A stretch of DNA of 64,000 bases. Origin: Asterias amurensis (Eukaryota). The position numbers and the translations under genes are program-made. The DNA is taken from contig NC_092653.1 of the NCBI RefSeq assembly GCF_032118995.1, forward strand, positions 7,251,031 through 7,315,030. Reading direction: 5' to 3'. Below the pieces are notes generated by a model. That model ran no database searches. It was not told the DNA's origin and was given only the letters and a program-made list of their open reading frames with translations. Below, one piece after another: positions 3,886-21,868 of the stretch; the stretch's first letter is position 1, and each line of letters starts with the position of its first letter.

Positions 3886-3986
3886 AGCCAGTGAGCTGAA
3901 CAGTGATCAGCTTCTTCAAATTCAAGTCTCAGATGATGAAGAGGGTGACTTGGATCCACACTTGAACCCAGCATGCCAATTTTTAG
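3886..3986 (+). CDS. STYXL1: STYXL1-like exon 5 (ASELNSDQLLQIQVSDDEEGDLDPHLNPACQFL)
   Basis: Acceptor ctccAG and donor GTAAAC; phase is consistent; DUSP-fold region preceding the P-loop. Confidence 0.7.
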
Positions 3987-4665: not shown

Positions 4666-4696
4666 TTTAACTGTTTCTTCCCTGTCTCTGTTTCAG

Positions 4697-5530: not shown

Positions 5531-5662
5531 GAAGCTCATAAACATCTGCTGGATTGTAAGAGTAACATCCGTCCACATCGATCATTTGTACATCAGCTCT
5601 CCAAATGGGAGAAGACGGTATTTGGCGAGACGCTTACCGATGTTAGCGATCCAAACTTCTAA
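5531..5662 (+). CDS. STYXL1: STYXL1-like terminal exon (EAHKHLLDCKSNIRPHRSFVHQLSKWEKTVFGETLTDVSDPNF*), stop TAA at 5660-5662
   Basis: Acceptor caacAG; C-terminal DUSP-fold motif (RP..SF..QL...E); in-frame stop. Confidence 0.8.
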   Translation, partial: EAHKHLLDCKSNIRPHRSFVHQLSKWEKTVFGETLTDVSDPNF

Positions 5663-6736: not shown

Positions 6737-7297
6737 TCAGGATACGACAGACCCAGTATATGTCCCTGCAATTGAAAGGACTTCCCTCCCCACCGTCTCC
6801 TCAGACCCACCATCTAAAAACGTCTCGGTCAGTTCCCTGAGCGTAATGGCAAGTCGTCTGGCGATTATTGCCCCTCGACATATTCCATGATTCCAGTCGT
6901 GTCTTGCGGCACCAGATACAACAATCAGACTCCGCGCTGGGAGTGGTATCCTTACAGTCAGGGCGGTTTGGGGGTCATGCTCGGCAGAGGTCGTATCTGA
7001 GGTTGTAACTGGGGTCAGATCTGAGGTCGTAACTGGGGTCATGTCCAGAAAGGTTCCCGACAACAAGTTGATTGTTATTAATCTCTCTCCCCATAACCAG
7101 CTGTCGTCCCTGTGGGGATCAATGGAGGACCCTCTGTCTGGGCGATAGTCAAGATTGCACAGTTCCACGGGGACAAAGTCGCCCAGACCAGGGTGTGAGT
7201 TTATGCGATTCACAAAGGGTTGGATGAACGGAGGCAGCCCTGTAAAACTTCCAGTTTTAAGTTTCCTTCGTTTGAAATTTACTTTTGGTCCGTAGTC
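6737..7297 (-). CDS. ALKBH4: ALKBH4 terminal exon (DYGPKVNFKRRKLKTGSF...VELCNLDYRPDRGSSIDPHRDDSWLWGERLITINLL...RIPLPARSLIVVSGAARHDWNHGI...RRLAITLRE...*)
   Basis: Matches human ALKBH4 block for block, including the Fe(II)/2OG dioxygenase HxD...H motifs (IDPHRDD, ARHDWNH) and RxxxTFR; acceptor ttcacAG on the minus strand at 7299-7298; stop at 6737. Confidence 0.85.
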   Translation of the reverse strand, partial: DYGPKVNFKRRKLKTGSFTGLPPFIQPFVNRINSHPGLGDFVPVELCNLDYRPDRGSSIDPHRDDSWLWGERLITINLLSGTFLDMTPVTTSDLTPVTTSDTTSAEHDPQTALTVRIPLPARSLIVVSGAARHDWNHGICRGAIIARRLAITLRELTETFLDGGSEETVGREVLSIAGTYTGSVVS

Positions 7298-7329
7298 CTG
7301 TGAAACAAAACAGAGATCTATAAACTTGT

Positions 7330-7930
7330 TTTTAATTTAATCTTGGTTTTTATCACAAAGAATGAGAAACACAAATATATGATATCATTTTGTTTGAAAT
7401 ATATTTTTCAAAGAGTTCAATAACTTCAACAATATTGCAAATTAAAAAAGTATATAAATTTTAAGTAATTGGAGAGGTTTACACATTTAATTCTAATTGT
7501 TAATGACCAGTGATTAAAACTAAATTTTTTAAAAGGTTGTTCACAGAGTTTAAAATCTTCAACAAAATTTACAATTAAAAGAATAAGAACCTTTACAAAA
7601 AGAAATAACTAAAATAACACAAAATTGGCAAGGTTTAAACAAACAACTTTATACATTGTTAATGACTGGTGACTAATATAAGTTTGTTTATTAAGATTTT
7701 CCAAAAAGTTAAAAATCTTCAACAAAATTTACAAATAACAAACGTAAGAACTTCAACAACATTGAAAGTTACAAAATAAATCATTGGGCAAATTTTAAAC
7801 AAACAATGCTCAGTTGTTAATGATCAGTGATAAAATAAGTTTGTTTTAAAAAATAAACAAAAGAAGTCATTGGCCAAGTTTTAAACAAATAGTTCTAAAA
7901 ATTGTAATTGAGCAGTGATTTTTTACACTA
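7330..7930. repeat. AT-rich tandem (satellite-like) array of about 125 bp x 4-5 in ALKBH4 intron 2
   Basis: Repeated ...aaaatcttcaacaaaatttacaa.taa.aa..taagaac...ttaaacaaacaa...ttgttaatga.cagtgat... units. Confidence 0.7.
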
Positions 7931-7966
7931 ATAAAGAGTTAACTAAAATAAAATCCTTTGTCTCAC

Positions 7967-8197
7967 CTGTTTCCATCGCCCAGACTGAGACGGTTTCCAT
8001 GGTGACTCATCAATAATCTGGACAATTTCTGCCTCTTCTTCTTCAGACACAAACTCAGGTATGAGAATGACTCCTGGAAAAACAAGACCATTCCCGGAGT
8101 GCTCCTCACAAGTCGACGTTACTATTGACTTCTCTTTAAAACTTTCTGTCTGTTGATACGCTTCATTACACATCCAGCAGTAAATGTACCGCTTCTC
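7967..8197 (-). CDS. ALKBH4: ALKBH4 exon 2 (EKRYIYCWMCNEAYQQTESFKEKSIVTSTCEEHSGNGLVFPGVILIPEFVSEEEEAEIVQIIDESPWKPSQSGRWKQ)
   Basis: Minus-strand acceptor ttttacAG and donor GTGAGA; matches the human YRFIYC...WAFPFPGVMLIEDFVTREEEAELV...PWKLSQSGRRKQ block. Confidence 0.85.
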
Positions 8198-8625
8198 CTG
8201 TAAAAAATAATACAAACACACTTTTCTGAATTTGCTTGTGGTTCATTTTTTTCTACAAATCTGTGTTTTTTTAAGTTTAGTATTGCTTGTGGTTCAGCAC
8301 ATCTTCTTTGTAACAAAAATAAAATATTCTGACCTCTGGAAATTATATTATATTTCCTCTGGCAAAGTCAAGTTTTGGTGTTCAGTTTGCAGTTAGCCTC
8401 ACTGGTATCTATTTCTTGAAAAATTATGCAGAAAACAAACATTTTATATTCATAATTTCTTAAACTCAAACACTTCGGCAGCTGAACAGCAAGGAATTAT
8501 TAGTAAGAATTATTTAACTACTTCTTGAATTGACGTTTCATGGCCCAAATGTTTTTCCTTGAATGAATTTTGACAGATGACACTGTTCAGAAAAAAAAAA
8601 AAACATGATAAAACTTTGGCATATT

Positions 8626-9370
8626 CTAGACCCAGTATTCAGTAACTGGGGCGCTGTACTCCTTTTGTTTGAAGTTTGTCATTATCTATTGTTATTTAGT
8701 GACAAATTTTGAAAAAAGGAATTCAGCGCCCTGGGTCTGAGTTCTACCTCCATGGTCTGGGCTACTCCTAGAACTATGCGGTGTGTTCCCAGACGCGTGT
8801 CCATATGTTTTGTACACAAAGCACAGATCAGGTATTTTTTCTTTCCAGGACGAACGTGTGCAGATAATTCTCCACGTTTGTCCTGGGGGAAAAAAAAAAA
8901 TTCGCACGTACCTCGCAACGCGTCGGGCAATCGGCATTTGTATTGTAGTGGTAAAATGGAGTAGTTGGGGGACTGAATTACGGTAAGAATTTATAATTTT
9001 TAACAATTTTTAAGATTGCGGAGTGGATTCTCTGGACGTCCCCCCAATCAATGAGAGTTTTAAGGACAAATACATAAAGCCTAATTTTGGCGTGATCTAA
9101 ACTTTATACCAGAACCATAAAAAAAGCAGACTCGTTAGTGTCGTGAGAGATGTCAACCTATGAGGTTATGGGAGATGATAGCGGAACGAAATCACATAGT
9201 TCTAGGAGTAGGTCTGAGCATGGAGAGAGAAAAAAAATATATTTCTACCTCACTGGTCTGAGCATATGCCACTGACAATCAAGTGCAATAATTTTACAAC
9301 ATTTAGAAATAGTTCGATTGAGAACGTCAACATTTCTAAAAATGGAGTACAATGCCCAAGTTACGGGTCT
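8626..9370. mobile_element. TIR-bounded element (about 745 bp) in ALKBH4 intron 1, with nested inverted repeats
   Basis: Outer inverted repeats tctagacccagtattcagtaactggggcgctgtactcc (8626-8662) and ggagtacaatgcccaagttacgggtcta (9343-9370); inner inverted repeats at 8735-8780 and 9195-9240. Confidence 0.5.
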
Positions 9371-9692
9371 AATTTTAATTTACTTTTTTGAGATATCCCT
9401 TTTTGTTAAAAATAGTGAAAAAGTAGTGGCGCCATATGGAAAGTTATCCTATCTTTCTTTAAAAATATTCCCTATAAATAAGCATTACGTTCACAAAAAA
9501 CAATAAACTTAGTTTATTTGCAGAGAGTTTCAGACCATGTTGACATACAAAACTCTTGACTGGTGAGGGACAACAGCGCCCTCATCGGCAATTGCCGTTG
9601 AGAAATAAAAGAATGAACACAAATATCTGAACAATTCCGACAAAAGTCACGGGTCGAAGTTGAAAAAAAAAACTTATATAATAGAAACTTAC

Positions 9693-9800
9693 ATGTGGTG
9701 ACTTTGATGTGACAGTACTTTGCGAAACACCACAGCCATTTTCACATAATAAACAAGTTCTTATGCCCTTACACCCACATTTCTCTACCCAATCCACCAT
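9693..9800 (-). CDS. ALKBH4: ALKBH4 exon 1 (MVDWVEKCGCKGIRTCLLCENGCGVSQSTVTSKSPH), start codon at 9800-9798
   Basis: Conserved N-terminal CGCKGIRTCLxCE motif (human ECGCKGIRTCLICE); minus-strand donor GTAAGT after 9693; upstream in-frame Mets at 9833 and 9878 are possible but not supported by homology. Confidence 0.7.
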
Positions 9801-11362
9801 TTTCACACAATATGTGCGTATGGTCCAGTACATGTAGCCCAAATAAACACGACTATGGATGACGATGAACGCGCCCAATAGCCCCCGAATTGGGCTTGGA
9901 TATCGCCCGATTATGGGATATCCTCAAAGAGGGCGCTATACAAATTATACAGCGCCCTCCTCCTTTTCTCTTTGTGACGGCGACGCGGCGGTCACAGGTT
10001 GGCTCATATTTTTCAACGGATCGTCTCAAAAAAGTTTGTCGTTTTGGAAGATCTTGAGGTGTTAGCTTCTGAGAAGGCAAGGAAACATTCATCGACTCGT
10101 AAGTAACCCTTTCGTAAATAAATTATATTAATTCAAACAGTGGATGTTCTCGTTTCATGGGAGTGTCGATCGCGCCACTTTGCTCAATTTTGAGCGACAT
10201 TTTTTTTCCAGGGGCGCGTCGCGACAAGTAACAAATTTTCAAACATGAGATCGCAGTTTTTAGACAATATTTTAATGAATCTTTATTGATTACAATAAAT
10301 CATATTTTACCAGATATTCTAGACGTGCTAAAAATGGAAAAAAGTGAGGTGATCTTGTATGAATTTCGGGTTAAATATCCAATCACTTGCCATGGTCCCA
10401 AAATTATTTTTATATTTTGATGATTTTTTCATCTCGTTTCCGTCTATAGAGGGCGCTGTAAAAGTACAATTTGCATGTTTGTTTTGGTTTCATTCAAAAG
10501 TTTTACTGAGTCATTTATGACTGAAAACAAAATTGCAATGGTACCTCACGGGTTCCCATGAAATTTGAAACAGGATTACTAACAATAACATGAATTTTTA
10601 ATTTAAAAATTTATAATTTGCAAAAACTATAGTAGAGTTGACCTGCACAGGAAATAAAATTACTCAAATAAAAAGTATTATTGATATATATTGGAGTGAA
10701 TGACCAGAGAGAACAGACCAAAGCCAAAGGTTTAGGCATTTTTTTATTTTTCAATTATAATATATCACTGTATCAAATGGTACAACATTATCTGTTCAGT
10801 TCCATTGTGTTGTTAAATTAAATGTTTTGGTCTGAAAATCGTCAAATGTGGTTTACTTTCTCACAGAAAAAACACTTTAAAAATGCCACTCTTTTCATGT
10901 CCTTGAATGTTCTTTCTTTCAATTCAATTCAATTCACTTTATTTCCAAATCCAAACAAATAAACAAAACAATTAGCAGTGAATAAAGAACTATGTTTTAC
11001 AAGCAAATGGAATAATGATAATACATGAAGTAATAATACAACATTTACAAGCAAAAGCAAAATATAAATTACGGAAAACAAAACAAAACCAAAACAGAGC
11101 ACAAGGTGATGGGGTTGTAGGGGCCCATAAAAAGCAATGCTTGTCGAGGATGGACCCCCCCCCCCTCCTTACGGAAGCAAACTAATAGGTGGAAAGAGCG
11201 AGTAAAATGTAGTGGCATAAAAAATCAGTTTACAAGAAGAAACAAACACAATACAGTAGGCGCTATTCTAAATAAATTCTAAGCAATAAATTAAGAGCTT
11301 AACATAAAACATCAACTAAACCATTTGTTTTTTTGCCCACAACTTTAATCCAGTATAGAAAG
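9801..11362. promoter_or_regulatory. Divergent promoter region between ALKBH4 (-) and LRWD1 (+). It contains a 9-bp inverted repeat GAGGGCGCT-N13-AGCGCCCTC at 9929-9959 and further copies of the (C)AGCGCCCTC / GAGGGCGCT(G) motif at 9574-9583 and 10448-10458
   Basis: Head-to-head gene arrangement; the motif recurs three times in about 900 bp (four half-sites); a candidate non-coding LRWD1 first exon ends at the donor GTAAGT at 10098. Confidence 0.45.
10000..10098 (+). other. LRWD1: Candidate non-coding 5' exon of LRWD1 (5' boundary and TSS unknown), spliced to the acceptor at 11352-11353 just upstream of the ATG
   Basis: Strong donor cgactcGTAAGT at 10099; a polypyrimidine tract plus AG (tttgtttttttgcccacaactttaatccAG) at 11353, 9 nt upstream of the start codon. 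Confidence 0.35.
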
Positions 11363-12388
11363 ATGTCAGAAAACGCTAACATCCCCGCTGACCCAACACC
11401 TACAGAGCCCGATCTGGTGCCCCCTGCTGAAGAAGCTGCACCCATTCTCCAAGTCGAGCCTGTCATTTCAGAGGAAGCTCCTGTCCCTGAAGACGATTCC
11501 ACTCCACAACTCCCGGCAGCAGTCGAGCCCGAGCAGACCCTTGACCTCATTCCAGAGGCCCAAGTCGAAAGCGTCCCAGTCCTTCAACCGGAATCAGTGC
11601 CTGAAATCCCAGCAGAGGCGATCCAGAATGCAGCGGAGCTAGCCCAGACCGTGACTTCAGAGAATGTTCTCCAGATCGCCCTTGAGGCGGTCCAAGCCGT
11701 CGCGGAAGCTGTACCCACAGAGGGCATTCCGGAGCAAGTTCCCCAGCTTGCCCCGCAACCCCCAGAAGCAGCCGAACCGACGGTCGAGCAAGTGATGTAT
11801 CCAGTCGCCGATCAGATTATTCCCGTTGAAATCATCAATGCTCCACAAGAGCAGCAAGAGGGAGAGCAAGTCGCTGAACCCGTCCTGGAGGCCGTCCTGG
11901 AACCCGTCATGGAATCTGCCCTGGAACCCGCCATGGAACCTGCCCTGGAACCTGCCATGGAACCTGCCATGGAACCTGTCCTGGAACCCGCCCTGGAACC
12001 CGCCTTGAACGAGGTGGCTCCTGAGCCCCAGGTCGAACAGACCCTAGCTGCCATGCCAACTCTAGAGCCACCATCCATTGTGCAACCCTACAATCCTCAA
12101 CACACCGCCCCGGCCATCTCTCCACCCAAGATCACATCCTACACGGCTGTTCACACGACGACCGGCATCATGCGTTACACCCCGGGGATAATGTCTGCCC
12201 TCGCTGGCAAGTATTCCAACAGCAGTCAGTTGGTGGAGCAGCTGGTACTCAACTGCGCTGGCTGTATCTCCCTGTCGGATATCCGCGTTCTGGACATGTC
12301 CAATCGAAAGATCATGAACCTTGACCCCGCTGTGTTTTCCCGGATGCCGGAGCTGGAAGAACTGGACATTTCCTTCAATAAAATAAAG
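11363..12388 (+). CDS. LRWD1: LRWD1 coding exon 1: a Pro/Glu/Ala-rich low-complexity N-terminus containing an (EPALEPAM)n repeat, then the first LRRs (LDMSNRKIMNLDPAVFSRMPELEELDISFNKIK)
   Basis: 1026-nt uninterrupted ORF from the ATG at 11363 (the annotated ORF start at 11333 is a non-ATG codon); donor GTACTA at 12389; the C-terminal about 50 aa match human LRWD1 LRR1-2 (LDLSGLELL...LDLSNNHLE). Confidence 0.7.
11875..12010 (+). repeat. Coding minisatellite inside LRWD1 exon 1: a 15-bp unit (ctggaacc[ct]gccatggaacc[tc]gcc), about 9 copies, encoding (L/M)EPA(L/M)EPA repeats
   Basis: Directly visible tandem periodicity; the alternate-frame ORFs WNPSWNLPWN and the antisense GSMAGS are by-products of it. 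Confidence 0.85.
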
Positions 12389-12678
12389 GTACTAAGAATA
12401 AATGCTCATTGTAACCCTTGGTGCGACTCTAATAAAATACTTTAAGGCAAGGTATACTTTTGGGAATTGTCAAAGACCACTTTCCTCACTTGGTGTATTC
12501 AACATATACAATACCTGTGAAAATTTGGGCTCAATTGGTCATCGGAAAAAATCCCCTTGTTGCATAGAATTATGTGCTTTCAGTTTGTTTTTTTAGATGC
12601 CTAAGAAACCTATTTAACTCCATGCACCATTTTGTTTGAAATTCTGAGGCCTCGAAATCAAATTCAAATATTTTAGTG

Positions 12679-12830
12679 AGAAATGACTTCTTTCTCGAAA
12701 ACGACGTTCTTCAGAGGGAGCCATTTCTCACAATGTTTTATACTATCAACATCTCTCCATTGATTGCTACCAATTAAGTTTTTGTGCTAACAATTATTTT
12801 GAGTATTTCCAGTGCCTTTGCAATGGTTAC
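12679..12830. mobile_element. Partial copy of the GACACTATTGGTAAT-TIR MITE family (LRWD1 intron 1)
   Basis: Shares the internal ...ttctttctcgaaaac...gagccatttctcacaatgttttatactatcaac...attattttgagta sequence with the copies listed below. Confidence 0.6.
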
Positions 12831-12915
12831 TAAGCCTCAATATCCTTCACTGGAAGGAATTGGGACGGTAAGGTCCTTCGTTATAATTATAAGAGCCATT
12901 GTTTTTTCAAACCAG

Positions 12916-13047
12916 GGTTTTCCAACGCAGCTTGGCCTGAGGAAGCTGAGATACCTGAACCTCAAGAAGAACTCCCTCAAGAGTGTCTTGACACTGGAGC
13001 AGTTCCCCAACCTGGAGGAACTCAATATTGACGAGAATGACCTGAAC
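12916..13047 (+). CDS. LRWD1: LRWD1 exon 2 (GFPTQLGLRKLRYLNLKKNSLKSVLTLEQFPNLEELNIDENDLN), LRRs
   Basis: Matches human TLPDNLGLSHLRVLRCANNQLGDVTALCQFPKLEELSLEGNPF; donor GTAAGT at 13048; an alternative in-frame acceptor lies at 12930. Confidence 0.7.
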
Positions 13048-13713
13048 GTAAGTAGGATTTCAAGCAACCTCAATTCTGGGGGTGATAGACCTCGCAGTGC
13101 CAGTTTATCCCAGTAGGCAACTCGCTTAAAACCCCGGGAATTGGTTCAATTTTTCTGACATCTGGAACATCTTAAGTTATGCCTTTTGCCAATCCACTCA
13201 AGTATGGTAGTCTGCAAAACAGGCATCAAGTCAAAGAGCGACTGGTCTCCTGAGTTTTTCTTTGATTGTTGAAGTGCGAGATTTTATGTCCTCACCTTAA
13301 AGCGATTTCTGTTGGACCCCCAGAGTTCTGCAAAATGTTTCAATGCGAGTGAGGCTTTCACAGTTTATCACAAACAATACATTCCATTTTGTTTGGGCAG
13401 AAGGACCATTTCTTCCAAGGAAATCTTATCCCATACTGAGAAATGTTCATCATTTGAATATTGATCTCTGGGCCTGATAATAAACCATGTTTGACTATTG
13501 TTATTTTTTATTCGGTCAAGATTTAAACAAACATTACAAGATACAATATTACCGATAAAATATAACAGTACAAGAAACAACGAAAGTATACTTTTAAAAT
13601 CTTGGGACACCTTGAACAATATAAAACGAATGTTGAAATGGAAACGGAACACTGGTAGATTCAAAGAAGGAAAAACAAAACCGTATAATTTCTGTTTAAT
13701 TTCTCATGTGTAG

Positions 13714-13827
13714 CCCCCTGATCAGTACATAGCTGTGTACCTGCTACCCAAGCTGAAGAAACTCAATGGTAAAGATGTGGACATCCGGGACACCATTCAG
13801 ACAATGGAGGACACCCTAAGGTCAAAG
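13714..13827 (+). CDS. LRWD1: LRWD1 exon 3 (PPDQYIAVYLLPKLKKLNGKDVDIRDTIQTMEDTLRSK), LRR cap
   Basis: Matches human LKVSFLLPTLRKVNGKDASS; acceptor tgtgtAG and donor GTAAGA. Confidence 0.75.
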
Positions 13828-14157
13828 GTAAGATAATTAGGAGTATGTGAGGTCGTTTGGTGTTAATCCTCATCCAATTTCAATGTCCTTTCCAAAAACA
13901 CCAATTTCAACCAAGTTGGCCCAGTCGTTACTGATTGATGGTAAGTTGAATATCAGCGGTTGCGCTATCATCTGATCACCTCCACTCGCACATTTGTACC
14001 GAAACCAGCGAGAAAGAGCATGCTGTAGCGTAAAAGACGTTAATCGGATAGAGCTTAACTTTAATTTGAGCTTGTTAAGCCAAAATTACCTTTATCCATA
14101 AAGAAGACAACACCTCATTTCAACATCAACAAATGTATATGTCTTTTTCCGTTGTAG

Positions 14158-14310
14158 ATGTTGAAGATCTGGGAGGAGGAGTATGCTGCTCGGAACGAGA
14201 TGCCCCTCAACAAGGCCGAGACGAGATCACTGGAGACGGAGTTTGTTGAACGCCTCAAGGAGTCCATCCAGTACGGACCAGGCTCCCTGGTGGAATTCAC
14301 TCATCACATG
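14158..14310 (+). CDS. LRWD1: LRWD1 exon 4 (MLKIWEEEYAARNEMPLNKAETRSLETEFVERLKESIQYGPGSLVEFTHHM)
   Basis: Matches human ...ADFVKSAVRDVRYGPESLSEFTQW; acceptor gttgtAG and donor GTGAGT. Confidence 0.8.
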
Positions 14311-14732
14311 GTGAGTCAGAGTTTCCTGACGATGCCCATAGCAGGCTCAATGAAAATGACCCCCTCAATTTTCTATCCTCTGCCAAGGTAGTAGTTTATA
14401 AGGAGGACAGTTCTTTTCAGAACTGGAAAAGTTTCCAAACAAATTTGAAAATGGAAGTAGAGAAGTCTCCCAAAATGTACTCCGCAGTTGTAAAATAAAA
14501 ATGTTGAGTCAGACAAGTTCTCAAAAGGAATATAATCTACCCAGCAAGAAGATAAACACACGGTGTTTCCTTGTCATCTTTAACTTGGATCTTTACAAAA
14601 TCAATCAATTACAAAATATCATGAATAAGATTGTAAAAATTAGCTCCGAACAAATTGTCCCTCTACAGTTTATTTTAGTTGTTTGTTGCATCGGATTTAA
14701 GAAAGTGCGCTTCTTTTGTGTACATTTTACAG

Positions 14733-15413
14733 CTGTCGGTACTTGCGGAGAAGCACGTAACCACGCAGACTGCCTACTGGCGCAAGACGGTTCCCGAACT
14801 CATCTCCACTTCAAATCAGAGCCCGTCCGCCAGCAAGATCAGCATCAAACTGCCCATTAAAGCCGAGTCCCCTACGCCAGACGACGTGGAGAAGCCACAG
14901 GGAACTTCAAACTCTCTCGCAGCGAGCCTAGAGGCGGCCGTCAAGGAATCGGACGCAGAGTTGGCAGGCGAAGCCGGACAGGAGACCCCCATGGATGAAA
15001 ATGACGCTCCAGAGGCACCGGCTGACACCCCTGCAACACCAAAGCAGAATTCCCCAGCCCAGGCCGTGACTAAATCTCCAAGGAAGATAACCGTGGTTGC
15101 CGCGGGGAGTAAAAGTCCCGCAAAGACCCCGACGAAAGCCACAACGTTGAAGAGGGCTGCACCCTCTGAAACTAATGCTACGAATGGAGACGAACCAAAT
15201 GCGAAGAAGGCTAAAGAAGGTGACGAGGAGGAGGCGGTCGTTAAGAAAAAGAGGGGCAGGCCGATCGGTTCGGGAGGCAAGTACACCAAGAAAGACCCTG
15301 CTAAGCCAAAGGCCATCAAGACGGAGCCTAAATCAGAGTCTAGAGTCAGGGCAGCCTCTGCTAAGCTAGCCGCTAGTGTTACAAGTGTTAGTAGTGATGC
15401 CAAGAAAGAAAAG
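14733..15413 (+). CDS. LRWD1: LRWD1 exon 5: 227-aa basic/Ser-Thr-Pro-rich linker containing KSPAKTPTK and the AT-hook KKKRGRPIGSGGK
   Basis: Acceptor tttacAG and donor GTAAAA; corresponds to the disordered linker of human LRWD1 (VRMISEELVAASRTQ...); the frame is continuous with its flanking exons. Confidence 0.75.
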
Positions 15414-16059
15414 GTAAAATACAGAGTTTTGGTTGTTTCGAGTTTAAAGACTTCTTGACTGATTTGGGGGGTTTTACCCAAACAATTGGGCTAAGTTTCC
15501 AAACGCTATTATCCCCTTGAAGTTATTGTCTGACAGCATAAACCAAAAGCCATTAAGTTTGGCAAATGAATGTTCAAGTTCATGGTTTTTGTTTCCTCTG
15601 TAAAAACAACCTTATTTTTGTTACCATCATTAGATAAGTGATGATTTTTTGTACTCGGGATGTGGTGCTATTTGTGTGGAAGCTTGGTGTGCTAAAGTCA
15701 CCAATGGTAAAGAAGAGGGGTACGAGTGCAGTCGATGTGTATTGCCCAGCACCTTGAGGAAAGGGTTGCTTGTAAATCATTGCTGTGATGTACATTGTTG
15801 AAATGTATCGGACATTAACCTTACATAGTTAAGCTCTAAAATTGCATCTTTGTGAGGGCAAAGACTTTTTTTTGGTAAAGGACACTTCCATTGAAAAATT
15901 TCAAAGTATTTGGAAAAAGTTTGACGGACACCAATGCCAAGGCAGTGGCTTCTGTGCAACTCCAGGTATAAAATGTATCTAGCGGGAACGATGTAGCTAC
16001 ACATTTTTTATAAACCTCATTTTTTTTTATAAACCTGAACTATTTTTTTGAACTTACAG

Positions 16060-16180
16060 AAAGTGTCGAGTGGATACGAGGTGATTCACATGCTCCGATG
16101 CCACTCCATGGAGAATGACCCGACTGATGCCAAGACCAACGTCTGGAAATGTGCATTCGAGCCTAGCCTAGAGAAACCAG
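16060..16180 (+). CDS. LRWD1: LRWD1 exon 6 (KVSSGYEVIHMLRCHSMENDPTDAKTNVWKCAFEPSLEKP), start of the WD40 domain
   Basis: Matches human LHFLQCHSKNNSPQDLETQLWACAFEPAWEEG; acceptor cttacAG and donor GTCAGT. Confidence 0.85.
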
Positions 16181-16375
16181 GTCAGTATGGCACACCTTTA
16201 TAACTAGAACTGGGAGTCCCCTTTAGGCTTCTGGAAGATTGAGTAAAAACTTTCACAGATTTGTTTTTTGATGCAGTGTCCAGTGCCTTTGACTTGACAG
16301 TTATACCTCTGTAACCCTAACCCTAAAAATCTTAAACTCGTCCATCTTGCTAACTATCTTCTCTTATTCCTATAG

Positions 16376-16482
16376 GTACAAGTAAGTGGACGGTAGCCTC
16401 TTGCGGAGGCAACACGGTGTGTGTCATTGACTGCAGTACAGGGAAAGTGCTCAAGAAATACCAGCATGCTAAAGACAAGGAG
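16376..16482 (+). CDS. LRWD1: LRWD1 exon 7 (GTSKWTVASCGGNTVCVIDCSTGKVLKKYQHAKDKE)
   Basis: Matches human ATSQTVATCGGEAVCVIDCQTGIVLHKYKAPGEE. Confidence 0.85.
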
Positions 16483-17098
16483 GTAGGTCTTATATCATCT
16501 CATAAGGGAGCGTCTCAAAAGTCCGAACTGTAGGAACGTTCTTTTTGGATCGCAAGAGTATCCCCGCCGCTTTACTTGGACCGGTCCTTTGGACCGCCAG
16601 AGCGATCTTTTGGATCGTTCCAAATGCGTCCAATGCGTGACCGCGTCCAATCTCATGTTAGAACGTTCCTAATGTCATGATGTTGCGATCCTGCGGGCAT
16701 ATGCCCGCAGGAACGTTCTTTTGCGCTAGGAACGTGCCCGACTTTTGAGACGCTCCCTAACAAGCATAAGTTCCAATACAAATTTACAATTTTCTCATAG
16801 AAATCCCCCTTCTAAGAGGAAAGCTGCGTTGCCTCTTTAAAACTGGTCCCTCCTTTTTGCAACTCCCTCAATACACAGCTCTGAGTTGTGCCAAACAGAG
16901 CACATGACCCGAAACATTAAGAACAAACTCGCTGAGAACCATCAAGCTTTTCTTCTAAGAATATTGAAGAAAAGATTCAGTATTCTCTCAAGAAAGGAGA
17001 AAAGTATCCCCCAGTAACCAGAATTCAATAATCATGATCAATGATCGATCGACTCATAAAATACTCGTAAATTATCTGTTGATTTCTCGTCTGACTAG

Positions 17099-17312
17099 GA
17101 GTTCTACTGCGTTGCATGGACCACCATCCCGATGGAAGCAGACGAGGAGGGAGCTGAGAAATGTAACATCCTGGCCGTAGCGGGCACCAGGGGCAGCGTC
17201 AAGCTCCTACACACCAGCCAGCTACTATGCTACTCAGAGATCAAGGGAGACAGGCGTCCGAGACCCATCAATTCACTGCTGTTCCATCCGGTTAACTCAA
17301 CCTGGCTCATGT
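17099..17312 (+). CDS. LRWD1: LRWD1 exon 8 (EFYCVAWTTIPMEADEEGAEKCNILAVAGTRGSVKLLHTSQLLCYSEIKGDRRPRPINSLLFHPVNSTWLM)
   Basis: Matches human EFFSVAWTAL...SVLAAAGLRGLVRLLHV...FSPAHETHL; donor GTGAGT at 17313. Confidence 0.85.
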
Positions 17313-17379
17313 GTGAGTTTTCAGATTGGTTTAATTTCGTTTTATTTATTCTTCTTCTTCCTTTCTGGTTGTGCAGCCT

Positions 17380-17530
17380 TCATGATTGAAGATAAACACA
17401 CTGCCAGACACACCGTGGCAAACCCCTTTTCATGATTGAAGATAAACACACTGCCAGACACACCGTGGCAAACCCCTTTTCATTATTGAAGATAAACAAA
17501 CTGCCAGACACACCGTGGCAAACCCCCTTT
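17380..17530. repeat. 50-bp tandem repeat x3 (catgattgaagataaacacactgccagacacaccgtggcaaacccctttt) in LRWD1 intron 8
   Basis: Three near-identical consecutive units. Confidence 0.85.
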
Positions 17531-17779
17531 TCTTTGCAATAAGTGTGTACTGGTTTTTTGGACAAAGAACTAAGCAATGGTTAAAAGGACACAGTGTTAC
17601 GGCTGGGACTTGAGCCCTCTGCTTGCTGATCAAAAACACCAGAGCTTGAGTTCAGTACTCTTATCACATGGGCCACGACACCCCTGGTTGTGAATTTGAA
17701 AGACTATCAGAAAAACAATTAATCACCGCACTAGCCAGGGACCCAAATGGAGAGAAGACAAGGAAGGAAGTTTCAGTCT

Positions 17780-17935
17780 TAGATGTGGGAGGAAAATCTC
17801 AGAGGATTATTCCAGGGAAAAGGCCCACGCAGTCAAGTAGGGACTGAAAACCCAATCCACATAGTGCCCAATGCAATTCAAAATGGGGTTTTATAGGTTG
17901 AAAGTGAGGAAAGAAACCACTCTGCCAACCTGATT
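17780..17935 (-). mobile_element. tRNA-derived SINE, family A copy (diverged)
   Basis: Homologous to 2215-2360. Confidence 0.45.
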
Positions 17936-18110
17936 ACCCTAATGGTTATTAAGTTAATCCTGCAACTTTCAATTACATTTGTTAGTTGACAGCGAATTGG
18001 AAATCATCCAACTGCATTGGTTGCATTGGATAGTACAACTGCGCACAGAAACACAACAACAAGATAACAACATGAAAAATGATTTTTACTTCTTATCGTT
18101 TGTTTTCCAG

Positions 18111-18180
18111 GTGGGTCAGAAGACATCATCATCTGGGACATTGGAATTCCAGAGGGGCCAGACTATAAATGCAAAACAAA
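18111..18180 (+). CDS. LRWD1: LRWD1 exon 9 (CGSEDIIIWDIGIPEGPDYKCKT)
   Basis: Matches human YDKRIILWDIGVPNQDYEFQ; acceptor ttttccAG and donor GTAAGT. Confidence 0.85.
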
Positions 18181-18346
18181 GTAAGTAGACAGGTAGCTTT
18201 TAACTATCATTATCTTTAACCGTGTAATTTTATTGTAAAATTGTGGACGTTTGTGTTTTGTGTCGTACAACAAGTATCCAAACCCTTTAAACTTTGCAAA
18301 GCCACGTCTTCATTTGTGTTTTCCCTTCTGTTTTTAATCTTTGCAG

Positions 18347-18487
18347 AAAGATGTATCACCTGGCCGCCCCCGGTCGTGTGCTCGGCCTTGTTGCCTTGCC
18401 GTCAACTGACTTCATACTGGCAGGATGTGAAAACGGTTGCTACGGATGGAGGATAGATAACAAACAACCCTTCGGCAAGAAGGGAAG
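18347..18487 (+). CDS. LRWD1: LRWD1 exon 10 (KMYHLAAPGRVLGLVALPSTDFILAGCENGCYGWRIDNKQPFGKKG)
   Basis: Matches human ...ARLLAGCEGGCCCWDVRLDQPQKRR; acceptor tttgcAG and donor GTAAAA. Confidence 0.8.
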
Positions 18488-18989
18488 GTAAAAATTCTCT
18501 GCCACGTCTTTGAGCCGGCGGAAACGCTACTACGTACCACAGAGCTCAATACACTACACCCCAAATACTGAATATTTTTTATATCGAAAAACCTATGAAT
18601 AAACTTGATTTATTACAATCGATTTGAATCTATTGTGCTGTTTAGTCATGCGTGCATGAAGTTTGCATATCTCGACCAAATAAGGGAATTTACACTGGAG
18701 TGTTGGGTATTCGAAACTGGGTATGGATTGCGCCTCGTTGTATAAAAAGTATGGATCCCTAGAACGGTCATGATTTGTTAAAAATAGATACCATCATAAG
18801 AACCAAATAAATATATTCACATCAAATTACCAAAGTTATATCAACTGAAAATGCATGCGCAACAGATGAATATCAAATCACATCACAATGAAAGTAAGCC
18901 TTATTTCTCATTTCATAAAAAAAAAAAAACAGAATTCCAATTTTCAGGATTTGATGTTCATAAGTAGTTTTCCCGATTGGTCTTTGCAG

Positions 18990-19120
18990 AGCACACAGCG
19001 TGGAGTTTCTTCTGCCGAGTAAAGCGCGTCTCGCCGAAGCCATCAAAGGTGATGAAGAGGAGGAGGAAGGGGAGGGCGATATGATAGATGGACTGGCTCT
19101 ACTCAACGATAAACTAGTCG
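18990..19120 (+). CDS. LRWD1: LRWD1 exon 11 (RAHSVEFLLPSKARLAEAIKGDEEEEEGEGDMIDGLALLNDKLV)
   Basis: Matches human VEFVFSEGSEASGRRVDGLAFVNEDIV; acceptor tttgcAG and donor GTAAGA. Confidence 0.8.
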
Positions 19121-19928
19121 GTAAGAGACATCGTGGACCAATGGGAGACTTTTTATGTATTTTTTTGTATGCAAGTTTGCCCCAGACAAGGCTGAAAGTC
19201 ACTCTTGGTTGGGGCTACAAGACGAAACATTATTTAAAGTGTATATAGCTCAGGGGAGCTGAAGGTAGTAATTCCTCTCAAACCAGTCTAACTGTAGGAT
19301 GGAGGGAAACATGAACCAGGCGAGGAGTCCCAGTACATGGAATAAAGCTATTGGAATTGCTCCTTGTTCTACATCCCAGCAAAGCAAGAGTGCATGGATG
19401 AGAAGAAGCAGAAAGTCTGGTTTCACACTCAAACTTCTGATATAGTGGATGCCTGTACCAATAAGGAAATCAAGGCACTTGAACAAGCATAACAATTTTG
19501 AGACGGTTTTTGAGTAATGAGACCAGTTAATGTAGCACAAGGTGCTGTGGTGCATTCAACAGCCACTTCCCTGCTGTGCAATCTTGAGCATCCTAACTGG
19601 TTTTATCTTGATATTTTTTTTTCGGATTTGATCTAAAGTAGCAATTTGCTGATTATTTTGTTTGGCATATTATTGGCCGCAATTCGCACGTATCGGCCTG
19701 ATACGCTTAGCTTGTGCATGGGGATATAACCAGGAGTGCGTGTTGGCGACCCCAACCAAAAGCTGTTTCTGACGTCATAACCAATACGGTAACCGAGCTC
19801 ACAACTCGGTTATCGTTCAGTCTGAACAGCAGAACCAACGACCAACAACCGAAACAGTTTTTGGTTGGGGTTCCCCAAACTGCACTCCATGTCCGAGTGT
19901 TACTAAACGCACTTCATTTCCATTGCAG

Positions 19929-20084
19929 CCAGTAAAGTCGCATGTGACGGAGCGATTCACGTATGGAACCTCGTTGATGCTCACAAGAAGAAACCAGTCA
20001 ACAAAGAGGTAGCTGTTACACCTCAGTGCACACTGAAATGGTGTGACTCGGACAGTGTGTATCTAGATATCGGAACATGGCAAG
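19929..20084 (+). CDS. LRWD1: LRWD1 exon 12 (ASKVACDGAIHVWNLVDAHKKKPVNKEVAVTPQCTLKWCDSDSVYLDIGTWQ)
   Basis: Matches human ASKGSGLGTICLWSW... WD repeat; acceptor cattgcAG and donor GTAGGT. Confidence 0.8.
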
Positions 20085-20734
20085 GTAGGTGGCATAATAA
20101 TAGTTGATTCTTAAATAGCGCTCATATTCGTCACTCAGTGACGCTCAAGGCGCTTTAACATACAGTATTTTCCTGCAAGGTATGGTGGACTACGTTTGAG
20201 TTATGAGACCTACTCCTTTTTACATAGCACCATGTAGTGGTTTACATGGTGCGGTAGTGCAACATGCTGCCAATTAGCCCTACTGCCAATTGAACCAGGA
20301 GCACCGGGGTGGACCCCTTCTCTTTTCGATAAGTGCACTGGGTTCTTTTACATGCCTTACACAACACACGGGACCAACGGCTTAACATCAAATCGGAAGA
20401 ATGAAGCAAGAAAGGTAAAGTGTCTTGCCTAAGGACACAGGTGTCAAGGCCGGGGCTTGAACCAACTCTCTGCTGATCAGAAGCACCATAGCTTCCAGAG
20501 TCCAGTGCACTTTAACACTCGGCCACGACACACCTTTACAATTCTCTCTCACAAAATTTCATGCAGTGGAAATATTGTCAACATGAAAACACACTATTTT
20601 CTAATCTACAACAAAGAGTACTGCTGTACAAATAGAGCTGTTAAACAGAATAAATGGAATAATGTTAAAAAAATGAATTACATTCTATTGAATCGGGCAA
20701 GGGTTTATCTATTTCTTCTTTCTACTCCTTTCAG

Positions 20735-20844
20735 GTTGTGGTACGATGGTGAGTGGTGACGATGAAGGCAAGATATGGGTGTATGACACTTCTAAACTAC
20801 CCATTGCTCCAGTCAAAACACCCACAACTAGAAAACCAACACAT
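20735..20844 (+). CDS. LRWD1: LRWD1 exon 13 (GCGTMVSGDDEGKIWVYDTSKLPIAPVKTPTTRKPTH)
   Basis: Matches human IVLCGDEEGNVWLYDVSNILKQPP; acceptor ctttcAG and donor GTAAGT. Confidence 0.85.
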
Positions 20845-21715
20845 GTAAGTATCTTCAGACCTGTTTTTGAAAGGGCAAGGGCACCAAGGCATTTTCTCCT
20901 TGGCAAAGGTAGACTTGATTCAAGTCCCGTTCTCGTGAGAGGGGCCCTAACCATGCCCGCAGTCAAAATGTAGCTATCGTGTTCCCGAGAAAGAGCCTTG
21001 ACCAGGTCTTTTCTCACTCTGCATGTTGTTATCGAAAAATCTCCCCCAAAAAGTGCTGCTCCATCGGTAAAATATTCATTATACTCTGTGACATCACAGT
21101 GCAAGACATTGTAAGTGCACGCGTCTATTGACAAGTCTATGACAAAGGACACCCTATAATTGTGAATTGAAAATTTCTACCAGAGTATTTGAAGGGCACC
21201 AAGGCAATGACCAGGGGGCATGGAGACAATCGCCTTCGTTGGCTCTGTGAAGTGTAAAATCTGTATTTGTGCACTGTACTTTGGGGGTTTTGCCGCTATT
21301 AATCCAAGACAGGTAGTCCGGTAACAATTCTCGGAGGTCAAATATTTGTTTGATTTCCATCGGACTGTATTCCTATGAGAGATATGGTTTTACTCGCTGA
21401 AAGGCACACAGTTTTCCGATGCACTGAAGACATGCCCTATGCCATGGTACACTGCAGTTTGACTGGCTGATTTAATGTAGTGCATGAATACACAATGTGA
21501 TAAAGGCTACTAACAGTATTGCTTCTCAAGAGTCAAAAACTGGGGCAAACAAACTATAACCGCATTACTTTGAAGTGAAATGTTTCTCAAAATGCTCTAT
21601 ACTATCGAATGCTGCTGTAGGCTTCAAACCAATTTTTTGATTGCCATTAATTGATTGAGTGATTACCAAAGCATGCCTTCCCATCAATATGTATTTTTGT
21701 TCTCTTAACCCATAG

Positions 21716-21868
21716 CTACTTTACTGGCCGGATGAGCAACCCAATGACAGTTCATCGACCTCATCAAACGACCACATCATCATCAACGATGTCGCGATCA
21801 GTTCAGATTGTAAATACATTGTATCAGTCACAAACAGAAATGTTATATGCATTTGGAGAAAGCTTTAG
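21716..21868 (+). CDS. LRWD1: LRWD1 terminal exon (LLYWPDEQPNDSSSTSSNDHIIINDVAISSDCKYIVSVTNRNVICIWRKL*), stop TAG at 21866-21868
   Basis: Matches the human C-terminus ...TALTDSNIVAIWGRM*; acceptor cccatAG. Confidence 0.85.
   Translation, partial: LLYWPDEQPNDSSSTSSNDHIIINDVAISSDCKYIVSVTNRNVICIWRKL

What the first reader, a model, noticed from the sequence alone, without database searches (positions are those of the whole stretch)
6737..21868. ALKBH4 and LRWD1 are arranged head-to-head as in human 7q22.1, with the start codons only about 1.5 kb apart
ALKBH4 (-) starts at 9800. LRWD1 (+) starts translation at 11363 and probably has a non-coding first exon ending at 10098. That puts the two TSSs within a few hundred bp of each other, a classic bidirectional promoter. 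As I recall, the human orthologues are also immediate divergent neighbours on chromosome 7q22.1. If this is an invertebrate, the gene pair has stayed together since the bilaterian ancestor, which suggests selection on shared regulation. ALKBH4 demethylates actin and histones and LRWD1/ORCA is an origin/heterochromatin factor, so both are chromatin- and cell-cycle-linked. STYXL1 (human 7q11.23) is the third gene in the window whose human orthologue is on chromosome 7, hinting at an ancient linkage group.
Basis: partly seen in the sequence, partly recalled or inferred. Interest (0 to 1): 0.6.

Follow-up and report, generated by a model that had tools for sequence, protein, structure and literature searches.

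The report
Ancient ALKBH4–LRWD1 head-to-head gene pair
In this sea-star genome piece the genes ALKBH4 and LRWD1 sit back-to-back and very probably share one short promoter; a sea anemone, a chiton and an elephant have the same layout, so it is a well-preserved but ordinary example of a known kind of gene pair.

Summary
ALKBH4 lies on the minus strand (3 coding exons, ATG at 9800, stop at 6737, 299 aa). LRWD1 lies on the plus strand (14 coding exons, ATG at 11363, stop at 21868, 1102 aa). Both Pfam LRWD1 domains score far above their cut-offs. The start codons are 1,563 bp apart, head-to-head.

The window is collinear with the sea star Acanthaster planci. Between the two genes only one stretch of non-coding DNA is conserved with that species, at about 9832-10053. 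It is CpG-rich. In both species a GTAAGT donor follows it (10099 here) and a pyrimidine-CAG acceptor sits 8-9 nt before the LRWD1 ATG. This supports the proposed non-coding first exon and places both transcription start sites (TSSs) within about 300 bp. No transcript data could be checked.

The head-to-head pair also occurs in Nematostella (ATGs 361 bp apart), a chiton (6.8 kb) and the elephant (227 bp), so it predates the bilaterians. It is adjacent but tandem in a tarpon. It is broken in a scorpion, an annelid, an acorn worm and probably Aplysia, and it is absent in a choanoflagellate.

STYXL1 is confirmed next to ALKBH4. In A. planci the block continues into MDH2, matching the human STYXL1-MDH2 neighbours.

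This is a new member of the known class of conserved divergent gene pairs, of modest interest.

The parts
677..5662 (+). STYXL1 orthologue (pseudophosphatase). Approximate coding span; exons lie near 677-787, 1386-1460, 1711-1815, 3089-3388, 3869-3997, 4678-4812 and 5528-5662. It is tail-to-tail with ALKBH4.
   Evidence: The exons are collinear with the A. planci Rhodanese+DSPc gene at 67-94% amino-acid identity. The active site reads LVCSDHGLSRS, so the catalytic Cys is replaced by Ser. The best solved-structure match is STYXL1, 9fqr_Xs, E=1.2e-77 over the full length; the next non-STYXL1 phosphatase scores 4.7e-14.
6737..7297 (-). ALKBH4 coding exon 3, including the stop codon. It holds the 2OG/Fe(II) oxygenase core with the HxD motif (IDPHRDD), the distal His (HDWNH) and RLAITLR.
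   Evidence: tblastn to ten ALKBH4 proteins gives E down to 7e-78. The acceptor TTTCACAG|GAC was mapped.
7967..8197 (-). ALKBH4 coding exon 2.
   Evidence: tblastn hits. Acceptor TTTTACAG|GAG and donor CAG|GTGAGA were mapped.
9693..9800 (-). ALKBH4 coding exon 1 (MVDWVEKCGCKGIRTCLLCE...). The ATG is at 9800 and the donor is CAT|GTAAGT.
   Evidence: The CGCKGIRTCL(L/I)CE motif is shared with elephant, tarpon, Nematostella and chiton exon 1. It aligns to A. planci at 85% nucleotide identity.
9832..10053 (.). Conserved, CpG-rich non-coding block between the two genes; the proposed shared (bidirectional) promoter. It contains:
- a CCAAT box at 9875-9879 and an inverted CCAAT (ATTGG) at 9889-9893;
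- the conserved run CCGATTATGGGAT at about 9907-9919;
- an inverted repeat, AGAGGGCGCT (9928-9937) and CAGCGCCCTCCT (9950-9961);
- the palindrome GTGAC...GTCAC at 9974-9995;
- AACGGAT...AAGATC at about 10016-10053.
   Evidence: Between ALKBH4 exon 1 and the LRWD1 ATG, blastn against A. planci found only one non-coding match, the core of this block at 9907-9996 (82% over 98 nt); the MAFFT alignment extends the similarity over the whole block. CpG o/e is 1.16 for 9801-10098 against 0.58 for the whole window. The block is single-copy in the window.
9914..10098 (+). Putative non-coding first exon of LRWD1. The 5' end (TSS) is not determined; the 3' end is at the donor CGACTC|GTAAGT.
   Evidence: The GTAAGTA donor aligns column for column with a GTAAGTA in A. 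planci (invariant columns 70-76). No ATG occurs between 9914 and 10098. No transcript evidence was available.
10099..11353 (+). Putative 5'UTR intron of LRWD1 (1,255 nt). Its first ~400 nt carry further conserved blocks: CTCAATTT..CGACATTTTTT..AGGGGCGCGTC at about 10183-10225, and TTTCCG.CT.TAGRKGGCGCTGT at about 10437-10461.
   Evidence: The acceptor is TTTGTTTTTTTGCCC...AATCCAG|TATAGAAAGATG here and TTTTTCTTTGTCCAG|CTTAAAAGATG in A. planci. CpG o/e is 1.42 for 10099-10500 and 0.35 for 10501-11352.
11363..21868 (+). LRWD1 coding region, 14 exons: 11363-12388, 12916-13047, 13714-13827, 14158-14310, 14733-15413, 16060-16180, 16376-16482, 17099-17312, 18111-18180, 18347-18487, 18990-19120, 19929-20084, 20735-20844 and 21716-21868 (stop included). 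The product is 1102 aa: a long acidic, proline-rich N-terminus, the LRR domain, a basic linker and the WD40 propeller.
   Evidence: Splice-junction enumeration is; assembly with AG/GT at every junction is. Pfam gives WD_LRWD1 229.9 bits and LRR_LRWD1 83.8 bits. 77 LRWD1 homologues were found, E down to 4e-76. The A. planci LRWD1 exons are 70-92% identical.

Best explanation
The region holds two unrelated housekeeping-type genes, ALKBH4 (minus strand) and LRWD1/ORCA (plus strand). They are transcribed divergently from one short, CpG-rich, TATA-less promoter at about 9.83-10.1 kb. The conserved elements continue to about 10.46 kb.

ALKBH4 starts translation about 30-100 nt from this promoter. 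LRWD1 starts with a short non-coding exon that ends at 10098. That exon is spliced over a 1.25-kb 5'UTR intron to an acceptor 9 nt before its ATG at 11363. The TSSs are therefore at most about 300 bp apart, although the ATGs are 1.56 kb apart.

The divergent arrangement is inherited from at least the cnidarian-bilaterian ancestor.

**Shown here**
- the gene identities, exon structures and orientation;
- the conserved non-coding block and its CpG enrichment;
- the aligned donor and acceptor sites in two sea stars;
- the same divergent adjacency in a cnidarian, a mollusc and a mammal.

**Inferred**
- the TSS positions;
- that the block works as a promoter in both directions;
- that sharing it has helped to keep the genes together.
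For: **Gene identities**
- ALKBH4.
- LRWD1.

**Collinearity with A. planci.** The locus reads LRWD1(-), ALKBH4(+), STYXL1-like(-), MDH(+).

**Conserved block.** Between ALKBH4 exon 1 and the LRWD1 ATG, blastn finds a single non-coding match, at 9907-9996 (82% identity). MAFFT alignments extend it to 9832-10053 and show further islands up to about 10461.

**Splice sites.** The GTAAGTA donor aligns in both species. A pyrimidine-CAG acceptor lies 8-9 nt before the ATG in both.

**CpG o/e**

| Region | Window | A. planci |
|---|---|---|
| Around the block | 1.16-1.42 | 1.16-1.47 |
| Rest of the putative intron | 0.35 | 0.45 |
| Genomic background | 0.58 | 0.47 |

**Specific motif.** AGRKGGCGCT occurs only at 9928 and 10448 in the 64-kb window (0.03 expected), and only at the orthologous sites in A. 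planci.

**Head-to-head pair elsewhere**
- Nematostella: ATGs at L002 9606(-) and 9968(+), with several CCAAT boxes between them.
- Loxodonta: ATGs at L006 9773(-) and 10001(+).
- Liolophura (chiton).

**Human promoter.** The LRWD1 TSS was mapped 139 nt upstream of its ATG, and the core promoter, -198 to +1, is TATA-less (PMC3565286). With an elephant-like spacing this fragment would reach into ALKBH4 exon 1 (inference).
Against: - No RNA evidence (RNA-seq, CAGE or cDNA) could be consulted, so both TSSs are inferred.
- Conserved blocks continue about 360 nt past the proposed donor. An alternative or additional first exon inside 10.1-10.5 kb therefore cannot be excluded.
- Only two sea stars were compared, so the motif conservation rests on a single pairwise comparison.
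- The pair is not inviolable:
  - tandem in Megalops;
  - separated in Centruroides, Owenia and Glandiceps;
  - on contigs of different length in Aplysia.

  This weakens any claim of strong selective constraint.
- The motif content of the elephant intergenic region looks different from that of the sea star.
Confidence: 0.75

Rival explanations
1. Neutral persistence. The two genes are ancient divergent neighbours, but nothing selects for the linkage. With only about 200-400 bp between the TSSs, rearrangement breakpoints rarely fall between them, so the pair survives in slowly rearranging lineages and is lost in others. Each gene may have its own core promoter inside the block.
For: - The pair is broken or re-oriented in the tarpon, scorpion, annelid and acorn worm, and probably in Aplysia (contig lengths), with both genes retained.
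- The lineages that keep it (cnidarian, echinoderm, chiton, mammal) are known for conservative gene order (general knowledge; Irimia et al. 2012, PMC3514665).
- Intergenic distances are very short where measured: 227 and 361 bp.
Against: - Irimia et al. report that 5'-5' pairs are over-represented among conserved pairs and keep their orientation preferentially. They read this as a sign of co-regulation (PMC3514665).
- In the sea stars and the chiton the ATG-to-ATG distance has grown to 1.6-6.8 kb. In the two sea stars the extra distance looks like a 5'UTR intron, so their promoters stay close.
- The block contains inverted-repeat motifs that suit a two-way promoter.
Confidence: 0.3
2. No upstream exon. 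LRWD1 transcription starts just upstream of its ATG, at about 11.1-11.35 kb. The conserved block at 9.8-10.1 kb is then the ALKBH4 promoter alone, so the genes are divergent neighbours 1.5 kb apart without a shared promoter.
For: - No transcript data are available to exclude it.
- The distance between ATGs (1,563 bp) exceeds the usual 1-kb criterion for bidirectional promoters.
- The A. planci annotation shows only coding sequence, starting at the ATG.
Against: - The 850 bp before the ATG are AT-rich and CpG-depleted (o/e 0.35), which is unlike a promoter in this genome. They show no similarity to A. planci.
- Both species have a pyrimidine tract plus CAG 8-9 nt before the ATG, and an aligned GTAAGTA donor after the conserved block.
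- In Nematostella and the elephant the LRWD1 ATG lies within 230-360 bp of the ALKBH4 ATG.
Confidence: 0.12
3. Coincidence or convergence. The adjacency arose independently in sea stars and vertebrates and has no historical continuity.
For: Several bilaterian lineages lack the adjacency.
Against: - The same two genes, in the same divergent orientation, are immediate neighbours in a cnidarian, two echinoderms, a mollusc and a mammal.
- They are also adjacent in a teleost, and gene lists place them side by side in human and chicken.
- Repeated independent assembly of one specific pair out of roughly 20,000 genes is extremely improbable (inference).
Confidence: 0.01

Closest known systems
Conserved ancestral microsyntenic pairs (CAMPs) of the co-regulated, 5'-5' type (Irimia et al. 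2012, Genome Res, PMC3514665). The textbook example is HSPD1-HSPE1.
   Same: - Two non-paralogous genes are immediate neighbours in divergent orientation across distant animal phyla.
- The intergenic distance is very short (227-361 bp between ATGs in the elephant and Nematostella).
- The intergenic sequence is conserved between related species.
   Different: - I could not check whether ALKBH4-LRWD1 is on the published CAMP list, because the supplements are not held.
- Unlike HSPD1-HSPE1, the two products have no known shared complex or pathway.
- The pair is absent in the one choanoflagellate examined.
- Co-expression was not tested here.
Mammalian CpG-island bidirectional promoters (Adachi & Lieber 2002; Trinklein et al. 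2004, cited from memory), including the human ALKBH4/LRWD1 promoter region at 7q22.1.
   Same: - The genes are divergent, and the promoter is TATA-less and CpG-rich.
- CCAAT boxes are present in the sea star and in Nematostella.
- The human LRWD1 core promoter (-198 to +1, TSS 139 nt before the ATG) is TATA-less (PMC3565286).
   Different: - In the sea stars LRWD1 appears to have gained, or kept, a 1.25-kb 5'UTR intron, so the ATGs are 1.56 kb apart. In the elephant they are 227 bp apart.
- The conserved sea-star motifs (AGAGGGCGCT inverted repeat, GTGAC..GTCAC) are not evident in the elephant intergenic sequence.
- The human promoter paper does not use the word 'bidirectional' and is not among the nine library papers that mention both genes.
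The STYXL1-MDH2 neighbour pair at human 7q11.23.
   Same: - In A. planci a STYXL1-type gene and a mitochondrial-type MDH gene are divergent neighbours directly beside ALKBH4.
- The window carries the STYXL1 orthologue in the same position.
- Human gene lists give the order POR, TMEM120A, STYXL1, MDH2, SRRM3 (PMC7442816 and PMC9036355).
   Different: - MDH2 itself lies outside the window.
- In human the two pairs are on the same chromosome, but in the separate bands 7q22.1 and 7q11.23.
- In chicken the two segments are listed contiguously. Cattle coordinates put ALKBH4 about 85 kb from DTX2, a gene of the other segment; MDH2 is not in that passage.
- Nematostella has tropomyosin, not STYXL1, downstream of ALKBH4.

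Membership tests
ALKBH4 (AlkB homologue 4, 2OG/Fe(II) dioxygenase) | The closest relatives across animals are proteins annotated as ALKBH4, aligned over the full length. | tested here: met
   One search returned 111 hits. All named ones are ALKBH4, from sea star, primates, fish, molluscs, cnidarians and a choanoflagellate. tblastn is collinear over three exons.
ALKBH4 (AlkB homologue 4, 2OG/Fe(II) dioxygenase) | 2OG-Fe(II) oxygenase fold with an intact HxD...H iron triad and the 2OG-binding Arg. | tested here: met
   The motifs IDPHRDD, HDWNH and RRLAITLR are present in the translation. The Pfam 2OG-FeII_Oxy_2 match is only 22.2 bits, below the 31.2 cut-off. Where the look-ups list a Pfam hit for ALKBH4 of other species, it is likewise only 'weak' or 'faint'.
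ALKBH4 (AlkB homologue 4, 2OG/Fe(II) dioxygenase) | N-terminal Cys-rich motif CxCKGIRxCxxC, encoded by a separate first exon. | tested here: met
   The window has CGCKGIRTCLLCE. The elephant has CGCKGIRTCLICE and the tarpon CGCKGIRSCLICE. Nematostella has CGCTGIRSCLFCK.
LRWD1 / ORCA | An N-terminal LRWD1-type LRR domain and a C-terminal LRWD1-type WD40 propeller in one protein. | tested here: met
   Pfam LRR_LRWD1 gives 83.8 bits (cut-off 28) over residues 304-475. WD_LRWD1 gives 229.9 bits (cut-off 30.7) over residues 708-1100. Named LRWD1 homologues reach E=4e-76.
Bidirectional promoter (divergent genes with TSSs less than 1 kb apart) | The genes lie on opposite strands, 5' ends facing, with nothing between them. 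| tested here: met
   No Rfam family or tRNA lies in 9.8-11.4 kb, and the ORF list shows nothing gene-like there.
Bidirectional promoter (divergent genes with TSSs less than 1 kb apart) | Transcription start sites less than 1 kb apart. | tested here: inconclusive
   The ATGs are 1,563 bp apart. A distance of at most about 300 bp follows only if the non-coding exon ending at 10098 is real. That exon is supported by aligned donor and acceptor sites and by the CpG profile in two species, but not by transcripts.
Bidirectional promoter (divergent genes with TSSs less than 1 kb apart) | CpG-island-like, TATA-less sequence with conserved elements. | tested here: met
   CpG o/e is 1.16-1.42 against 0.58 for the window. 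The block is 82% identical to A. planci over 98 nt. I saw no TATAAA in 9801-10098 when reading the sequence.
Bidirectional promoter (divergent genes with TSSs less than 1 kb apart) | Promoter activity in both orientations. | not testable with these tools
   This needs a reporter assay, or CAGE or ATAC data.
Conserved ancestral microsyntenic pair (Irimia et al. 2012) | Non-paralogous genes that are adjacent in several distantly related metazoan lineages. | tested here: met
   The genes are adjacent in Cnidaria, Echinodermata (the window), Mollusca and Chordata. Gene lists place them side by side in human and chicken.
Conserved ancestral microsyntenic pair (Irimia et al. 2012) | Correlated expression of the two genes. 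| not tested
   No expression data were accessible. Both genes have reported roles in mammalian spermatogenesis (PMC4143218, PMC3565286). This is suggestive only.
STYXL1 (MK-STYX pseudophosphatase) | Rhodanese plus DSP domains, with the catalytic Cys replaced by Ser, and the closest match to STYXL1 rather than to active DUSPs. | tested here: met
   The active site reads LVCSDHGLSRS. PDB STYXL1 chain 9fqr_Xs matches at E=1.2e-77 over residues 5-298; DUSP6 matches at 4.7e-14.

The most novel reading that the evidence does not exclude
The short ALKBH4-LRWD1 promoter would be a regulatory unit kept for more than 600 million years because the two genes must be co-expressed, for example in dividing and germ-line cells. 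In sea stars it would be organised around a conserved, oppositely oriented pair of AGRKGGCGCT (CTCF-like) sites, with a third site 350 nt into the LRWD1 5'UTR intron. Together with the neighbouring STYXL1-MDH2 divergent pair it would form an ancient four-gene neighbourhood. Vertebrates would still keep that neighbourhood on one chromosome segment (chicken chr19, cattle chr25, human chr7).
Probability: 0.12. Interest if true: 0.5.

Novelty: new member of a known kind. Interest (0 to 1): 0.3.

Why it matters
It adds one well-documented case to the catalogue of divergent gene pairs that have survived since before the cnidarian-bilaterian split. It also supplies a compact candidate promoter, about 300-650 bp long with sharply defined conserved motifs, that could be tested in sea-star embryos.

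For human biology, the published 198-bp LRWD1 'core promoter' probably overlaps the start of ALKBH4. Promoter methylation or NF-kB effects reported for LRWD1 may therefore also act on ALKBH4.

The finding does not reveal a new mechanism. Conserved head-to-head pairs and bidirectional CpG promoters are well described.

Tried and rejected
- **Wasted look-ups.** Three synteny look-ups found nothing on record: two 'isoform X2' proteins and the Hymenochirus protein.
- **First LRWD1 search.** A rough concatenation of ORF pieces returned only six weak molluscan hits. A proper exon model was needed.
- **First splice-junction pass.** It missed the donors at 17312 and 19120 and two whole exons. These were corrected with A. 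planci ORF matches and a second pass.
- **CAMP list.** The supplementary tables of Irimia et al. 2012 are not held, so I could not check whether this pair is listed.
- **Literature.** Nine papers mention both genes, all within gene lists; none discusses the arrangement.
- **Rfam and tRNA scans.** They found nothing in the region.
- **Repeat hypothesis.** The conserved block is not a dispersed repeat: it is single-copy in the window.
- **POLR2J.** It neighbours the pair in the elephant and the tarpon but is not in the window.
- **Bacterial-type promoter/terminator scanner.** Not used, because it does not apply to an animal genome.

Full report
**1. What is in the sequence**

The window is animal DNA (39% G+C, genes with introns). 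ORF fragments in 6.7-9.9 kb on the minus strand and in 11.3-21.9 kb on the plus strand gave weak Pfam matches to 2OG-Fe(II) oxygenase, LRR_LRWD1 and WD_LRWD1.

*ALKBH4.*
- A database search with the large minus-strand ORF returned 111 proteins. All named ones are ALKBH4. The best is Acanthaster planci (61% identity, E=5e-53).
- tblastn with ten of these proteins placed three collinear exons.
- Reading the splice sites gave 9800-9693, 8197-7967 and 7297-6737, a 299-aa product.
- The product carries the N-terminal CGCKGIRTCLLCE motif and an intact HxD...H/R set.
An in-frame ATG at 9833 exists but is not conserved in A. planci.

*LRWD1.*
- A first homology search with rough ORF pieces was poor, but it placed the WD-domain exons.
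- Junction enumeration and A. planci ORF matches gave a 14-exon coding model, 11363-21868, 1102 aa, with AG/GT at every exon boundary.
- The model scores 229.9 bits on WD_LRWD1 and 83.8 bits on LRR_LRWD1. Both are far above the Pfam cut-offs.
- It finds 77 LRWD1 homologues.
- The two start codons are 1,563 bp apart and divergent.

**2. Origin and local context**

The public locus that carries A. planci ALKBH4 reads LRWD1(-), ALKBH4(+), a Rhodanese+DSPc gene(-), and a malate/lactate dehydrogenase-type gene (Pfam Ldh_1_N and Ldh_1_C)(+). The window is collinear with it exon by exon:

| Gene | Amino-acid identity to A. planci, per matched exon |
|---|---|
| STYXL1-like | 67-94% |
| ALKBH4 | about 64% |
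| LRWD1, conserved exons | 70-92% |

The window is therefore most likely from another sea star (inference).

The gene at about 677-5662 (+) is a true STYXL1 orthologue. Its catalytic Cys is replaced by Ser. Its best solved-structure match is STYXL1 at E=1e-77, against 5e-14 for the nearest active phosphatase. The A. planci dehydrogenase is of the mitochondrial MDH2 type.

**3. The intergenic region**

- *Conservation.* Between ALKBH4 exon 1 and the LRWD1 ATG, blastn against A. planci finds a single non-coding match, 9907-9996, at 82% identity. MAFFT extends it to about 9832-10053.
- *Elements in the block.* They are:
  - a CCAAT and an inverted CCAAT;
  - the run CCGATTATGGGAT;
  - an inverted repeat AGAGGGCGCT / AGCGCCCTC with an unconserved spacer;
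  - a GTGAC..GTCAC palindrome, which reads GTGAA..TTCAC in A. planci, so both arms changed together;
  - AACGGAT...AAGATC.
- *Donor.* A GTAAGTA donor follows about 45-60 nt downstream and aligns in both species (window 10099).
- *Acceptor.* Both species have a pyrimidine tract plus CAG 8-9 nt before the LRWD1 ATG.
- *Further islands.* Conserved islands also lie at about 10183-10225 and 10437-10461.
- *CpG content.* CpG o/e is 1.16 for 9801-10098 and 1.42 for 10099-10500. It is 0.35 for the remaining 850 bp before the ATG and 0.58 for the whole window. A. planci shows the same pattern.
- *Copy number.* The block is single-copy in the window.
- *Motif specificity.* AGRKGGCGCT occurs only at 9928 and 10448 in 64 kb (0.03 expected), and only at the orthologous sites in the A. 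planci locus.

Together these results place the promoter at 9.8-10.1 kb, perhaps extending to 10.5 kb. No transcript data could be consulted, so the TSSs remain inferred.

| Species (group) | Arrangement |
|---|---|
| Nematostella vectensis (cnidarian) | Divergent; ATGs at L002 9606(-) and 9968(+), 361 bp between them, several CCAAT boxes |
| A. planci (sea star) | Divergent; ATGs about 1.8 kb apart |
| Liolophura sinensis (chiton) | Divergent; coding starts 6.8 kb apart; ALKBH4 identity confirmed by tblastn |
| Loxodonta africana (elephant) | Divergent; ATGs 227 bp apart; POLR2J downstream of LRWD1 |
| Megalops (tarpon) | Adjacent, but POLR2J, ALKBH4 and LRWD1 all lie on one strand |
| Centruroides (scorpion) | Not adjacent |
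| Owenia (annelid) | Not adjacent |
| Glandiceps (acorn worm) | Not adjacent; no ALKBH4 in the 7.4 kb upstream |
| Aplysia (gastropod) | Probably not adjacent; the two genes lie on contigs of different length |
| Salpingoeca (choanoflagellate) | Not adjacent |

Published gene lists add the following:
- Human 7q22.1 reads ORAI2, ALKBH4, LRWD1, POLR2J (PMC4263743).
- Chicken chromosome 19 reads ...ORAI3, ALKBH4, LRWD1, RASA4B, UPK3B, DTX2, SSC4D, YWHAG, HSPB1, SRRM3, MDH2, TMEM120A, POR (PMC11507135).
- Cattle chromosome 25 coordinates place ALKBH4 about 85 kb from DTX2 (PMC5398616).
- Human 7q11.23 reads POR, TMEM120A, STYXL1, MDH2, SRRM3.

The divergent pair therefore dates at least to the cnidarian-bilaterian ancestor. 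In sea stars two divergent pairs, LRWD1/ALKBH4 and STYXL1/MDH2, lie tail-to-tail. In the chicken list their two regions are still contiguous. The cattle coordinates fit this, although MDH2 and STYXL1 are not in the passage read.

**5. Mechanism and rivals**

*Best explanation.* The genes share a TATA-less, CpG-rich bidirectional promoter inherited from early animals. In sea stars LRWD1 has a 5'UTR intron that stretches the ATG distance while the TSSs stay close.

*Main rival.* The linkage may persist neutrally, because the break target is tiny. The losses and the tarpon re-orientation show that the constraint is not absolute.

*Published framework.* Irimia et al. (PMC3514665) found that conserved pairs are enriched for the 5'-5' orientation and for very short intergenic regions. 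They read this as evidence of co-regulation. The present pair fits that class.

*Other rivals.* A start of LRWD1 transcription at 11.3 kb is unlikely, because that region is CpG-poor, unconserved and preceded by an acceptor in both species. Convergent origin is effectively excluded.

**6. Comparison with what is known, and novelty**

Conserved divergent pairs and bidirectional CpG promoters are well described. The human LRWD1 core promoter (-198 to +1, TSS 139 nt before the ATG, TATA-less) has been studied (PMC3565286). That paper is not among the nine in the library that mention both genes. None of those nine discusses the arrangement.

I could not check the CAMP supplementary list.

I therefore rate this a new, well-supported member of a known kind. 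Its value is modest: a compact, testable ancient promoter, and a reminder that human LRWD1 promoter findings probably also concern ALKBH4.

Noticed in passing
window 9928-9937 (+), 9950-9961 (inverted), 10448-10457 (+); L001 8817-8826 and 8286-8295: The motif AGRKGGCGCT occurs only in the ALKBH4/LRWD1 promoter-proximal region of the 64-kb window (2 exact matches, 0.03 expected), and only at the orthologous sites in A. planci. From memory it resembles the 3' core of the CTCF motif. The A. planci intronic copy, CCGCCTGTAGGTGGCGCTG, is close to the full consensus.
   Followed up: partly
window 677-5662 (+); L001 12458-21159: A STYXL1 orthologue (catalytic Cys replaced by Ser) lies tail-to-tail with ALKBH4. 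In A. planci it is head-to-head with a mitochondrial-type MDH gene. This matches the human STYXL1-MDH2 neighbours at 7q11.23 and gives a four-gene block in sea stars. MDH2 should lie just beyond the left end of the window.
   Followed up: partly
L004 8118-21237 (Megalops cyprinoides): In the tarpon, POLR2J, ALKBH4 and LRWD1 are all on the same strand. Adjacency is kept but the head-to-head arrangement is lost, which suggests a local inversion in the fish lineage.
   Followed up: no
window 9833 (-): An in-frame ATG lies 11 codons upstream of the ALKBH4 start (MYWTIRTYCVK-MVDW...). It is not conserved in A. planci. Whether it is used depends on where the TSS lies.
   Followed up: partly
window 35956-36028 (-) and 38779-38851 (+): Two tRNA genes, tRNA-Ser(AGA) and tRNA-Ala(AGC), were found by both Rfam and ARAGORN.
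   Followed up: no
window ~44824-45207 (-): A protein-kinase exon reads [28 protein letters not shown]. From memory it looks like Nemo-like kinase (NLK). If so, its human orthologue would not be on chromosome 7.
   Followed up: no
window 11363-12200 (+): The first LRWD1 coding exon encodes about 290 residues of acidic, Pro/Glu/Ala-rich low-complexity sequence, with imperfect repeats such as (A/V)(L/M)EP(A/V). This tail makes the sea-star proteins (1102 and 1073 aa) much longer than vertebrate LRWD1 (about 650 aa).
   Followed up: no
L008 7382-19166 (Glandiceps talaboti); gastropod LRWD1 proteins P0112-P0117: The acorn-worm annotation splits LRWD1 into separate LRR and WD genes. The gastropod LRWD1 proteins are WD-only (about 400-430 aa). 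The LRR domain may have been lost, or the genes may have been split in annotation, in some lineages.
   Followed up: no
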